NCBI RefSeq assembly: GCF_030028105.1
Contig: NC_092380.1
Coordinates: forward strand, 22,097,144-22,161,143
Length of the DNA stretch: 64,000 nt
DNA from: Mobula birostris
Lineage: Eukaryota
Direction: 5' to 3'
Part shown: positions 1,490 through 62,207 of the stretch, in pieces
Layout of the letters: the number at the start of each line of letters is the position of its first letter
Numbering within the stretch: position 1 is the stretch's first letter
Made by a program: the position numbers and the translations under genes
Notes under the pieces: model-generated
Told to the model about the DNA's origin: nothing
Seen by the model: only the letters and a program-made list of their open reading frames with translations
Databases searched by the model: none

Positions 1490-1685
1490 TTCTGTAGAAG
1501 CTGGAAATCCAGAACAACGTGAGCGAAATGCTGGAAGAGCTCAGTGGGTCAGGCAGCATCTATGGAGAGGAATGAACAGTCGACGTTTCAGAATTGAAGG
1601 ATCTCAGTCCGACATATTGACTCTTTATCCCTCTCCGTGGATGCTGCCTGACCTGCTGAGTTCCTCCAGCATTTTGTGAGTGCTA
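1490..1685. mobile_element. Fold-back pair of Penelope pseudo-LTR fragments with decayed hammerhead remnants
   Basis: Arms 1526-1570 and 1630-1674 are reverse complements. Centre holds cagtcgacgtttc, the 3' half of a hammerhead on the minus strand. Confidence 0.7.
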
Positions 1686-2009
1686 CACAACTCGCTGTAT
1701 GTTTCCATGTATGTGTGATATTATACATCTGAATCTGATGAGGGGAGACCGAGAGGCGGGATGAGACACGAGTTCTTATCATTTCTGGTACTCCCTGCCT
1801 GAACAAGTGATAGGAGATCACTTATTAGTAACTTTCCAAAAGGATTTGAAAGGATGAACACTCTGGGGTGAAGGGAAGGGCTAACTTGGGGCAACCATTC
1901 GTGTGTTGGCCCCACTCTCATTCTTTTGACTGTAGATTTATTGTGAGGATTAACCTCTTTCTGTTAATTATGGGATTATATCATAATCACTGGCTCTGCA
2001 TTACAAAAG

Positions 2010-2545
2010 GTCCTGCAGTATAAGGCTTTATAAAGCACTGGTCAGACTGCACTTGGAGTATTGTGAACAGTTTTGGGCCCTTATCTAAGAAAGGATGTGA
2101 ACTGATGCTGGGTCGGGTCCAGAGGACGTTTACGAGAATGATCCCGGGAAAGTAAAAGCTAACGTTTGAGCGTTTGATGTCTCTGGGCCTGTGCTCGCAG
2201 GTTGTTTTGAAGAAGGATGGTGGGTCCTATTGAATATTGAAAGGCCTAGATAGAGTGGACGTGGAGATGATGTTTCTTATAGTGGGGGTGTCTAGGACTC
2301 AGAGATGAGGAATTTAATTAGCCAGAGGGTGGACGAATCTATTGAATTCATTGCCACAGGTGGCTGTGAAGGACAACTCATTGGGCATATTTAAAGCGGA
2401 GGTTGATAGGTTCTTGATTAGTGAGGGTGTCAGAGGTTACAGGGGGAAGGCAGGAGAACGGGGTTGAGAGGGATAATAAATCAGCCACAATGGAATGGCA
2501 GAGAAGACGAAGGGCTGAATGACCTCATTCTGCTCCTTTGCCTTA
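2010..2545 (+). mobile_element. CR1-clade LINE 3' fragment
   Basis: Encodes decayed LEYCEQFW.P...; ends in the gggctgaatg.cct.attctgctcct tail shared by many copies here. Confidence 0.75.
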
Positions 2546-2899
2546 AATGACAAACAGAAACACTCTCCCAATCAAATTTTAGTCAGCAGATAAGCAGCTG
2601 AATGTGTGTAAGCCTGTATGAGGAGCCAGTCTAAGAGCTTTAACAACTGCGTGTCTTGAGAATCGTCCTAGACTCCCTCAGCCACCTGTCCCATCCATAG
2701 CACTTCCCAAATCTGTGCGGTCTCACTGCCTGCATCTAACACCTCCAAATCCTCGCCAACTTAAATACAAAAGGAGATGGAGAAAATATGGAGATGAGAT
2801 GATAGGGATGGTGTGATGGAGGGAAAGTGGAGATGAAATGATAGGGATGATATAATGGCATTGGAGAAGATGCTAAGGAGATTTCCTTAGGATCTCTCA

Positions 2900-3400
2900 T
2901 TGGAGAGAGTCCAGAGGAGGTTCACAAGGATGGTTCTGGGAATGAAGGGGTTAAGAGCGTTTGACAGCTTTGGGCCTGTACTCATTGGAATTTAGAAGAA
3001 TGCAGGGAGATCTCATTGAAACCTACTGAGCGTTGAAAGGGCTGGATAGGGTGGATGTAGGGAGGATGTTTCCTATGGTGGGAGTATCCAGAACTAGAGG
3101 GTACAGCCTCAAAATTGAGGGGCGACCCTTTTAGAACAGAGGTAAGGAGGAAATTTTTTTAGCCAGAGAGTAGTAAATCTGTGGAATGCTCTGCCACAGA
3201 TTGTGGTGGAGGCCAAGTCCGTGCATAAATTTAAGACACAAGTTGATAGTTTCCTGATCGGACAGGACATCAAAGGATATAGCGAGAAGGCAGGTGTATG
3301 GGGTTGAGTGGGATCCGGGATCAGCCGTGATGGAATGGCAGAGCAGACTTGATGGGCTGAATGGCCTAATTCTGCTCCTATGTCTTATGGTCTTATGGAA
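2900..3400 (+). mobile_element. CR1-clade LINE 3' fragment
   Basis: Highly similar to 16395-16910; ends gatgggctgaatggcctaattctgctcctatgtcttatggtcttatgg. Confidence 0.8.
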
Positions 3401-3604
3401 TGGGGCATTTCAGTTACGAGGAGAGATTGGAGAGACTGGGATTGTTTTCCCCGGAGTGGAGGAGGCGGTGGAAATGTCTGAGGGATGTGTATAAAACAAT
3501 GAGGTGCGTTGATATAGTGGACGGTGATAAACCTCAGAAACCAGAAGACACATGTTGAAGGTGAGGGGTTTAGGAGGCAGAGCTTTTCACTCAGGAGGTA
3601 AAGA

Positions 3605-60100: not shown

Positions 60101-60697
60101 AGCGTCCACCTGGATCTCGAGCAGGTGTCCATGAAGCCCGAGATGGAGCCGGCGGCCTTGACCCAGCCGAGCCAGCGGCCTGCCGGCTCTGAGCTAAAGT
60201 CGCCGCTCACCACCGCCAGTTTCTGCAGCATGAAGAACAGGAAGTTCCTCAAGACGTCGTCCTTGCACCTGCTGAAGAAGAAGGACTCGCCCCCGCAGCC
60301 TCCCAAGAAGACCTACGCCCAGGAGTATGAGTTTGAGGACGAGGAGAAGGAGGACGTGCCGGCCGACATCCGGCTGAACAGCCGGCGGCTGCCAGACCTC
60401 CTGCCGGACCTGATCTCCAGCTGCCGAGCCCGGGGCAGCATCAGCCCCGTCTCCGACATCGACTTCTGCGCCGGCAGCCTCAACGGCGGCAAGAAGAAGC
60501 CCAAGCGGGCCTCCAAGCCCAAGGAAAAGGGGCCGCCGCGCCCCCGAGGCAGGCCCCGGATCCGGCCCCTGGAGCCCCCGCAGGGCGTGGCCCTCGATGG
60601 CCCCAAAAAGAGAGGGCGGGGCCGCGGCAGGGGCAAGAAACTGGCCGAGGGCGAGAACGAGGGCTTCAAGATGGAGAAGCAGGCGAAGCCCAGCAAG
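57177..60697 (+). CDS. PRR12: PRR12 large coding exon 4 (3521 bp; S/Q/P-rich, two AT-hook-type motifs at the 3' end)
   Basis: Lies inside ORF 56951..60742. Acceptor tccttccctctcccAG ends at 57176; donor GTAAGG at 60698. Begins [26 protein letters not shown] and contains PRR12-type blocks [72 protein letters not shown] and DVPADIRLN. These fit PRR12 better than its paralogue QSER1. High GC3 codon bias. Confidence 0.95.
60532..60640 (+). other. PRR12: AT-hook coding motifs PPRPRGRPRIRP and KKRGRGRGRGKK
   Basis: Canonical RGRP core in the exon 4 translation, followed by an RG-repeat hook; PRR12 is known to carry AT-hooks. Confidence 0.8.
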
Positions 60698-61209
60698 GTA
60701 AGGAGAAAACACCTCACAACGAACACTTTTGTTTTTATCTGAAAAAGCGTTTACAAATTTGAGGTTGGGGCAAAGAGTCATAGATTCAAAGAGCATAGAA
60801 AGAGGCCCTTCAGCCTGTCTTATCCATGCTGACCATGGTGCCTGTCAAAGTCAGTCCCATTTGCCAGTGTTTGGCCTATACCTCTCTTGATAAACCCTTC
60901 CTGTCATGAACCTATCTAAATGTCTTTTAAATTTTGTTAACGTACCTGCCTCAAATACTTCGTTTGGCCGTTCACTCCATATACTGACCACCATCTGGGT
61001 GAAGAAGTTGCCCCTCCAGATACTTTTTCAATCCCAAGCCTCACACTTTAAACTTTTGCCCTGTAGTTTTTGCTTCTGTTTCCCTGGAAAGAAGACTCTG
61101 TGCATTCACCCTGTCTAAAACCTATCTCTGCCATCTCTCCTATACTTTGCTTCACTCACCGTAAAATGACGCCATCTTGTGTAATCCTGTAATCTATTTC
61201 GGATCTCCA

Positions 61210-61640
61210 GCAGAGAATACAGGAAAGTGTAGGCCTTTCGGCCTTATGATGTTGTGCTGACCTTCTAACCTGCTCTAAGGTCAATCTGACCCTTCCCTCC
61301 AAGGTCAATCTAACCCTTCCCTCCAAAGTGGCCTCCATTTTTCTATCATCCATGAGACTCTTAAACGTCTCTAATGTATCTGCCTCGACCACCTCACTGT
61401 ATTAGCCATTACCACCCTAGAGAAAAGATCTCTGGCTGTCCATTCTATCTATGCCTCTTATCATCTTATACATCACATGAAACTGACTTCTCGGTCTCCT
61501 TTCCTCCACAGAGAAAGGCCTGATCTCACTCATCAGACATGCTGTCTTGTCCAGACAGCATCCTCGTAAATCTCCTCTGTGCCCTCTCTAAAACTTCCAT
61601 GGCCTTCCTATAATGGGGCGACCAGAACTGAACGCACACC
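61210..61640 (-). mobile_element. CR1-clade LINE 3' fragment (another at 60780-61140)
   Basis: Reverse complement of the 22800-23330-type CR1 tail. Confidence 0.7.
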
Positions 61641-61909
61641 TCGTCTATTCTGGGACCTCAGTGCCTGAGTCCCTCCACCTCACCCACCCAGTGATGTAGT
61701 GGCCAGGCGTGCAGTTCTTTCCAGCTGTTTCTAAAAGTGTTTGACATCCAGCGAAGTGTGGCCTGGCCGGTGTGGTCATCATTGTAATGTAGAAAATGTG
61801 TCCCCCAATGTATTCATACAGCACAGAAACAGGCTCTTCAGCCCATCTGCTCCATACCAACCAAGATGACCATCTGAGACAGTCCCATCTGTCAGCATTT
61901 GGCCCACAT

Positions 61910-62207
61910 CCTTTTCCTTCAGGCCTTTACCTTTTCCTCCTATCTCCTCCCAACTTCACACTTCATCCTTCTTCCCCACCCCCCTACCTTCCTTCCCCCT
62001 CACCTGGTCTCTCTTATCACCTGCCAGTTTGTATTCTTTCCCCTCCAACTCCCCTCCCATCCCCCCCCCCCCACATCTTATTCTGGCTTCTTTCCCTTTC
62101 CTTTCCCGTTCTAATGAAGAGTGCTGGTCTGAAACGTCAACTGTTCATTCCTCTCCACAAATGCTGGCTGACCTGCTGAGTTTCTCCAGCATTTTGTGTG
62201 TGTTACC
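61910..62207 (+). mobile_element. Penelope 3' end and pLTR with variant hammerhead
   Basis: Pyrimidine-rich 3' region, then gtt CTAATGA aga...tct GAAA cgtc aac (62108-62141) and the pLTR tail. Confidence 0.7.

What the first reader, a model, noticed from the sequence alone, without database searches (positions are those of the whole stretch)
1490..62207. Dispersed family of minimal hammerhead ribozymes on Penelope pseudo-LTRs throughout the PRR12 transcription unit
Seen: a short repeat with consensus AGUC-CUGAYGA-A-GGGUCUCGGCCC-GAAA-CGUC-GACU recurs at about 1577(-), 14510(+), 20640(-), 22358(+), 23688(+), 27507(-), 29915(-), 41062(-), 41569(+) and 62108(+). This is the type-I hammerhead layout: stem I, CUGAnGA, stem II, GAAA, a vestigial palindromic ACGU stem III, and a GUC cleavage site. 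Established: Penelope-like elements carry such minimal hammerheads, which are thought to cleave as dimers. Inference: roughly one copy per 6-7 kb implies a very large ribozyme-bearing retroelement family in this genome. Most copies lack any coding sequence, which suggests non-autonomous, retrozyme-like amplification.
Basis: partly seen in the sequence, partly recalled or inferred. Interest (0 to 1): 0.8.

Follow-up and report, generated by a model that had tools for sequence, protein, structure and literature searches.

The report
Hammerhead-bearing Penelope retroelement ends, cartilaginous fish
The repeat is the broken-off end of a known kind of jumping gene that carries a predicted self-cutting RNA motif and has an estimated 0.8 million copies in this cartilaginous fish genome; many young copies stop at the motif's first bases rather than at its cutting site, which likely means they were copied from uncut RNA.

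Summary
The repeat is real: 9 of the 10 listed copies match a profile (reversed control 0), but only 3 keep the catalytic core. They are 3' ends (pseudo-LTRs) of an autonomous Neptune-type Penelope-like element (RT + GIY-YIG, 3.7-kb unit) with a minimal type-I hammerhead, a kind described in 2014. Density in PRR12 introns (1 per 4.9 kb) equals the genome average: about 0.83 million ends, about 0.1 million with an intact fold. They are 5'-truncated by-products, not a retrozyme family. Three things I did not find in print: (1) exact genome counts drop 15% over three bases at the hammerhead's 5' edge (57,390 to 48,655), while 0 of 49 sampled young copies end at the cleavage site; (2) an ORF-bearing subfamily spread with an A6C core (69 of 100 listed), a change reported to cripple Mg2+ cleavage; (3) rare 380-400-nt mini tandems look like newborn retrozymes. 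Self-cleavage and transcription were not testable here. The scan holds 358 earlier notes on Penelope hammerheads in other genomes, none on this sequence. Verdict: new member of a known kind, with useful mechanistic footprints.

The parts
40956..41542 (-). Young (subfamily A) 5'-truncated copy: last ~39 codons of the GIY-YIG endonuclease, pyrimidine-rich 3' UTR, hammerhead (41098-41062, predicted cut after 41067; core intact, ACGU palindrome lost) and long tail
41542..41667 (+). Head-to-head partner of the former: short young copy, 5' end at -28, hammerhead 41570-41606 (predicted cut after 41601; core intact, G10.1>A), short tail
27436..27557 (-). Young solo end, 5' end at about -14; core and ACGU intact, one stem I mismatch
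22358..22458 (+). Older solo end whose 5' boundary is at +1 (the hot spot); A13>G, stem II broken
23688..23806 (+). Subfamily-B-like solo end with long tail; core reads CUGUUGA (likely a decayed A6C variant), G12>A
1492..1686 (.). Old head-to-head twin: 1591-1492(-) and 1595-1686(+), both cut short inside the hammerhead
14340..14600 (.). Old head-to-head twin: 14425-14340(-) and 14508-14600(+); first core letters missing
20630..20670 (-).
29832..29947 (-). Old decayed end; three core changes
62108..62216 (+). Old (subfamily C) end downstream of the large PRR12 exon; G5>A
54059..54166 (-).
61..124 (+).
48472..48618 (+). Endonuclease C-terminal fragment of an older copy, no hammerhead hit beside it
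52111..60742 (+). Host gene PRR12, coding exons at 52111-52227, 54760-54924 and 57176-60742 (context only)

Best explanation
These repeats are 5'-truncated 3' ends of an autonomous Penelope-like retroelement (Neptune type by its cysteine linker) that carries a minimal type-I hammerhead motif, predicted to cut only as a dimer, and they were likely copied from uncut RNA by the element's own reverse transcriptase. Shown: unit of 3,706 nt from hammerhead to hammerhead with an RT-linker-GIY-YIG frame; two classes of 3' end, about +97 and +133 from the motif's first base (the PLE 'tail'); target duplications and microhomology at junctions; frequent head-to-head twins; a sharp excess of 5' ends at -1 to +1 and a broader one to +12; no excess at the cut site (+32). 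Inferred: the protein starts DNA synthesis at the two tail sites, on one or both strands of the target cut (as shown in vitro for the anole Poseidon element), runs through the intact hammerhead and often stops at its 5' edge, most likely because many transcripts begin there (initiator-like YYAGUCC in all three subfamilies), otherwise because it stalls there. The ribozyme is kept by selection in master copies, most likely to trim tandem transcripts slowly with protein help, but is not needed for each insertion; solo copies lack a partner and decay neutrally, CpG sites first.
For: Full element and tandem; best relative a shark protein at 70%. Copy numbers. 3' ends: 89 of 91 end by +145, in two clusters near +97 and +133, and 2 run on into the next unit. 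5' ends: 16 of 49 at -6..+12, 4 at +13..+33, 4 at -60..-7, 0 at +31..+33 (a stricter de-duplication gave 14 of 47, p=1e-5). Genome counts with one anchor: 85,986; reaching +10 64,776; +1 57,390; -2 48,655; -7 46,897; -22 42,008; the five probe words survive mutation alike (49-53 of 61 long copies). Contigs of another organism show 26 loose ends with unlike flanks at +1. Selection in masters: commonest letters differ between subfamilies at 6 of 37 hammerhead columns (4 are CpG flips) against 34 of 53 flanking columns. Distant relatives: 28 sense-strand hits in 80 loci against 0-1 in shuffles, 26 of 28 with palindromic helix III, 24 with the extra base, 23 with G10.1-C11.1, none required by the descriptor. 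Neutral decay in young copies: core 5/306 vs downstream 22/949, CpG 47/299. PMC11167929: ribozyme mutants insert normally in vitro.
Against: No RNA data: cleavage, transcription start and expression are untested. About six in ten young copies run on upstream of the edge, and of 17 copies that reach the upstream hammerhead from the ORF only 5 end at -6..+12, so a start site cannot be the only RNA end. A second block downstream (+50..+72) is as conserved as the hammerhead (2 of 23 columns differ), so conservation is not unique to the ribozyme. The ribozyme fold is not the predicted minimum-energy fold (z 0.07; a rival hairpin hides the CUGA core). An A6C subfamily spread widely, and 20 of 37 young copies carry U at 11.1. 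Cut-and-religated circles would leave no scar at +32, so their use is not excluded. In old subfamilies the core is slightly better kept than the flank (p 0.04 and 0.006), which I put down to A-richness and alignment bias but did not prove.
Confidence: 0.72

Rival explanations
1. The short copies are a non-autonomous retrozyme- or SINE-like family (hammerhead plus tail) that multiplies from its own RNA using the PLE protein.
For: About a third of young copies are little more than hammerhead plus tail; 11 of 30 loci holding the ORF's 5' part are mini partial tandems, and two repeat one junction twice (L218, L232).
Against: Short and long copies share haplotypes (53 vs 33 copies); no excess of same-strand neighbours; the mini tandems have different junctions at each locus and the 5' part has only 468 exact matches against 85,986 3' anchors.
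Confidence: 0.07
2. The motif no longer works as a ribozyme in this lineage; it is kept as a promoter, splice or protein-binding signal, and the 5'-edge peak is a reverse-transcriptase stall at a bound protein or hairpin (for example splicing factors on the pyrimidine tract and AG directly upstream).
For: A6C lineage with ORF remains upstream (L184, L189); pyrimidine tract plus YAG at the edge in all subfamilies; in D. virilis an intron ends at helix I (PMC4209133); Naiads thrive without canonical hammerheads (PMC8557442).
Against: Catalytic letters and palindromic helix III are kept while stems change across distant relatives; the youngest subfamily has A6 (30 A, 0 C of 32); hot-spot copies abut target duplications with no shared upstream exon, and the peak sits at +1, not after the AG at +2.
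Confidence: 0.15
3. Two hammerheads of a tandem cut out a unit-length RNA that is ligated to a circle, and the circle is the main template (model of Cervera and de la Pena 2014).
For: Partial tandems and twice-repeated junctions fit rolling-circle copying; a religated circle leaves no end at +32.
Against: A seamless circle does not explain a sharp 5' end at -1..+1; linear cut RNA should leave some ends at +32 (0 of 49; 1 at +32 and 1 at +33 among 106 in the set enriched for short copies); the A6C lineage spread.
Confidence: 0.15

Closest known systems
Minimal hammerheads in pLTRs of metazoan PLEs (Cervera and de la Pena 2014, PMC4209133)
   Same: Type-I layout, no real helix III, palindromic 15.2-16.2, extra base after A9, G10.1-C11.1, mostly solo copies from truncated elements, opposite-strand pairs.
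   Different: Scale: about 0.1 million descriptor-passing and 30,949 exact motifs here against 4,000 (coelacanth) and 9,000 (X. tropicalis) there; low sequence variety within the family; A6C variant lineage (they report U3-A8); no cartilaginous fish found in the text or in supplement file 2 (file 1 not searchable).
Neptune clade of EN+ Penelope-like elements (Craig et al. 2021, PMC8557442)
   Same: RT, CX4CX2C linker, C-terminal GIY-YIG, partial tandems, inverted 5'-truncated partners, 30-40-nt tail.
   Different: Clade not tested by a tree with named references; a defined 5'-truncation peak at the hammerhead is not described in the passages read.
Poseidon element PAc of Anolis (Frangieh et al. 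2024, PMC11167929)
   Same: Two internal RT start sites matching the tail; both target strands extended; ribozyme protein-assisted and dispensable for insertion in vitro.
   Different: Other clade; there the ORF starts inside the hammerhead, here the young subfamily's first ATG after the motif closes after 16 codons; the support here is genomic, from tens of thousands of insertions.
Animal non-LTR retrozymes (PMC7229834; Li et al. 2026 preprint 10.64898/2026.07.22.740005)
   Same: Type-I hammerhead, derivation from PLE pLTRs; rare 380-400-nt tandem units here resemble them.
   Different: The window's copies are solo or head-to-head, not tandem arrays, and are not a separate replicating family.

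Membership tests
EN+ Penelope-like element | ORF with RT and C-terminal GIY-YIG endonuclease | tested here: met
   901-codon frame in L076; RVT_1 E 1.5e-5 and GIY-YIG E 9e-4, both just under Pfam's cut-offs; 505 relatives at E<=1e-30
EN+ Penelope-like element | Partial tandem forming pLTRs, inverted 5'-truncated partner, optional 30-40-nt tail | tested here: met
Neptune clade | CX2-5CxxC linker between RT and endonuclease | tested here: met
   CKRNKCYTC in P0002; shared with Nematis per PMC8557442
Neptune clade | Placement in an RT tree with named Neptune references | not testable with these tools
   No labelled PLE references were on hand; Neptune rather than Nematis rests on the preprint's report that vertebrates hold Neptune and Poseidon
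Minimal type-I hammerhead of PLEs | Core CUGANGA/GAAA/UH, stems I and II, palindromic helix III, extra base after A9 | tested here: met
   Commonest letters of subfamilies A and C; met by 22 of 202 sampled ends in full; not met at A6 by most of subfamily B
Minimal type-I hammerhead of PLEs | Compensatory stem changes | tested here: inconclusive
   None within this genome (stems unchanged between subfamilies); stems differ and still pair in distant relatives, but pairing was required by the descriptor
Minimal type-I hammerhead of PLEs | Self-cleavage after C17 as dimer or with protein | not testable with these tools
   No raw RNA reads were available
Rfam hammerhead families | Match to an Rfam hammerhead model | tested here: not met
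   No hammerhead hit at E<=1 in the window; expected for motifs lacking helix III
Non-LTR retrozyme | Tandem non-coding units, each with a hammerhead | tested here: not met
   No tandem in the window; same-strand pairs at chance level; met only by rare mini tandems elsewhere
Non-LTR retrozyme | Abundant circular RNA | not testable with these tools
   No RNA holder on record

The most novel reading that the evidence does not exclude
The first base of the hammerhead is the transcription start of this retroelement, so the ribozyme sits at the very 5' end of the RNA as a slow, protein-gated decapping or trimming switch; insertion uses the uncut RNA, which is why about one young copy in eight starts within three bases of that point and none at the cut site, why a lineage with a crippled A6C core could still spread to tens of thousands of copies, and why template jumps between internal start sites keep giving birth to 380-400-nt retrozymes.
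Probability: 0.3. Interest if true: 0.62.

Novelty: new member of a known kind. Interest (0 to 1): 0.4.

Why it matters
What hammerheads do in endonuclease-bearing Penelope-like elements is stated to be unclear (PMC8557442), and in vitro work says cutting is not needed for insertion (PMC11167929). A family with ~86,000 near-identical young ends turns this into a counting problem: junction positions record where the template RNA ended. The peak at the 5' edge, the lack of one at the cut site and the A6C lineage are in vivo footprints that fit the in vitro result and give one sharp test (capped 5' ends at position 0). It is also the densest load of minimal hammerheads among the figures in the papers I read. 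The ribozyme family itself is known, and the PRR12 link is incidental.

Tried and rejected
Rfam scan: no hammerhead hit; three weak miRNA hits judged chance. One search had a gap one base too long (176 matches, indel copies only) and is not used. One of the 98 sampled stretches is all N. Spliced-RNA origin of the 5' peak: rejected as main cause (no common upstream exon, peak at +1). Exact fold-back priming at stem I: seen in single cases only; DNA folding gave no consistent 3' hairpin. A second cleavage after UUA at position 0: rejected on pairing grounds and because subfamilies B and C have CCA (sequence inspection). Selection against long copies carrying a splice acceptor: would raise all short classes, but +13..+33 is not raised. 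Enrichment in PRR12: none. Literature searches for hammerheads or Penelope in sharks and rays and for truncation at the hammerhead found no matching paper; subscription papers and Repbase/Dfam were not searchable, so the element itself may well be catalogued. Earlier scan notes gave no lead.
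Full report
Numbering. Position 0 is the A of AGUC (window 41570 for the + copy); core C3 is +4, the predicted cut lies between +31 and +32.

1. Observation. A profile built from six window copies and refined on sampled genome stretches finds 13 ends in the window and none in reversed sequence. Three keep all catalytic letters and each of these has another flaw. Rfam has no hammerhead hit. 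The host gene is PRR12 of a cartilaginous fish, with coding exon 1 about 2.9 kb upstream of the window, so the copies are intronic.

2. What it is. Copies elsewhere in the genome continue upstream into a GIY-YIG frame. L076 holds a partial tandem: hammerhead, 5' region, a 901-codon open frame with RT, CX4CX2C linker and GIY-YIG, 3' UTR, second hammerhead; unit 3,706 nt. The best relative is a shark protein at 70%. The linker marks Neptune/Nematis (PMC8557442, passages read); Neptune is inferred, not shown by a tree. In 98 ten-kb stretches taken at round coordinates on large contigs (one all N) there are 202 ends, i.e. about 0.83 million in 4.01 Gb (bootstrap 0.70-0.96 million); 114 of 202 cover the motif, 48 keep the core, 22 keep core, stems and ACGU; 24 pass my descriptor, about 0.1 million genome-wide. 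One exact 34-letter pattern matches 30,949 times, control 0. Published figures I saw: 4,000 and 9,000 minimal motifs in coelacanth and X. tropicalis (PMC4209133, parts 1-2 of 4 read, supplement file 2 searched, file 1 not searchable) and 126,247 canonical ones in axolotl (PMC7229834, passages).

3. Is the motif selected? Three rough subfamilies (A young, B, C old) differ in their commonest letter at 6 of 37 motif columns (A6, N7 and four CpG flips) but at 34 of 53 columns just up- and downstream (p 6e-6). A downstream block (+50..+72) is equally conserved (2 of 23), so the ribozyme is not the only constrained part. Contigs from two other organisms differ inside the motif only at CpG sites, N7 and 11.1. 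In 80 metagenome loci with related proteins, 28 sense-strand motifs were found against 0-1 in shuffles, mostly with palindromic helix III (26), extra base (24) and G10.1-C11.1 (23); stem pairing there was demanded by the descriptor and is no independent proof. Inserted young copies decay neutrally (core 5/306, downstream 22/949, CpG 47/299); old ones show a small core advantage that may be compositional.

4. How the copies arose. 3' ends fall near +97 and +133 (89 of 91 end by +145; 2 run on), the tail signature that matches two internal RT start sites in the anole element (PMC11167929, parts 1-2 of 4 read; supplement search gave nothing). 26 head-to-head pairs lie within 150 nt among 202 ends, while same-strand pairs (35 within 1.5 kb) are near my rough chance figure; twins share a target duplication in at least one case checked by eye (L204). 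Short and long copies share haplotypes. So the solo motifs are truncated by-products, not retrozymes.

5. The 5'-edge peak. Of 49 independent young copies (51 rows minus two overlapping-locus duplicates), 16 start at -6..+12, 4 at +13..+33, 4 at -60..-7, none at +31..+33 (over-merged to 14 of 47, p 1e-5). In a set enriched for short copies the mode is +1 (13 rows; one row each at +32 and +33 among 106). Exact genome counts with one downstream anchor (85,986) fall to 64,776 at +10, 57,390 at +1, 48,655 at -2, 46,897 at -7 and 42,008 at -22; the probe words survive mutation about equally (49-53 of 61 long copies, loci L001-L020 left out). That is a 15% loss over three bases against under 1% per base upstream, and about 6-7% over the 23 bases that include the cut site (interval -4 to 15%). 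Old subfamilies show many starts at 0..+3 too, and contigs of another organism give 26 loose ends at +1. I read this as copying of uncut RNA. Why synthesis ends there is inferred: an initiator-like YYAGUCC (consensus recalled) suggests a transcription start, and D. virilis Penelope has an internal TATA-less promoter (PMC2377424, passages); a stall at a rival hairpin or bound splicing factors is the alternative. Against a sole start site: about 60% of copies extend further, and only 5 of 17 copies arriving from the ORF stop there.

6. Core variant. In subfamily B, 69 of the first 100 listed matches (of 2,399; counted by hand) have C at position 6, 27 have A; ORF remains lie directly upstream in L184 and L189. 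In the sample 14 of 129 rows have C6 against 3 U and 6 G, some tens of thousands of copies. A6C lowers Mg2+ cleavage over 10,000-fold relative to Mn2+ in one tested hammerhead (PMC7151607; also PMC3088659; passages). The youngest subfamily has A6 (0 C of 32), so the variant lineage spread and apparently faded.

7. Mini tandems. The ORF's 5' part has 468 exact matches; 11 of 30 such loci join it, mostly near +290 to +330, to a piece of 3' UTR, and L218 and L232 repeat one junction twice. They resemble the retrozymes that a 2026 preprint derives from pLTRs (parts 1 and 3 of 5 read; its supplements were not seen and may list a cartilaginous-fish family), but junctions differ between loci.

8. Novelty. 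PLE minimal hammerheads, solo ends, inverted pairs and tails are known (also PMC3846280, passages). My searches found no report of this family in sharks or rays, of a truncation peak at the hammerhead's 5' edge, or of an A6C PLE lineage; subscription journals and repeat databases were not searched. Activity and expression remain untested. Verdict: new member of a known kind, interest 0.4.

Noticed in passing
L218, L232, L223, L224, L243 (G000 C1): Mini partial tandems of about 360-450 nt with two hammerheads in direct orientation; ORF-side breakpoints cluster near +290, +305 and +328, perhaps further RT start sites or the limit of the protein-binding signal.
   Followed up: partly
window 41620-41642 and equivalents (+50..+72), and +65..+81: Second conserved block downstream of the hammerhead with a hairpin whose stem is kept while its loop differs between subfamilies; likely part of the RT start signal.
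   Followed up: partly
L076:3660-4500: The N-terminal part of the element's protein lies in another frame than the RT frame in this copy, around a duplicated proline-rich segment with C runs; other copies differ in frame, so one ORF versus frameshift is unresolved.
   Followed up: no
young subfamily, position +23 (11.1): 20 of 37 young copies have U instead of C, leaving G-U or a shifted A-U closing pair of stem II.
   Followed up: partly
window 16700-20600 and 31200-35600: Two long G-rich minisatellites (33-35 nt and 29-32 nt units) in PRR12 intron 1.
   Followed up: no
window 3669-3872, 8063-8527, 11852-12064, 44479-44699, 51777-51999: Another dispersed repeat family, resembling shark HE1/V-SINE elements (label recalled, not tested).
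   Followed up: no
L283 (-) 1766: A metagenome PLE locus has the U3-A8 core variant with a 6-bp stem II and ACGU palindrome.
   Followed up: no
G000:C13 upstream of window (L326:7078-7170): PRR12 coding exon 1; the first intron is about 55 kb long.
   Followed up: yes
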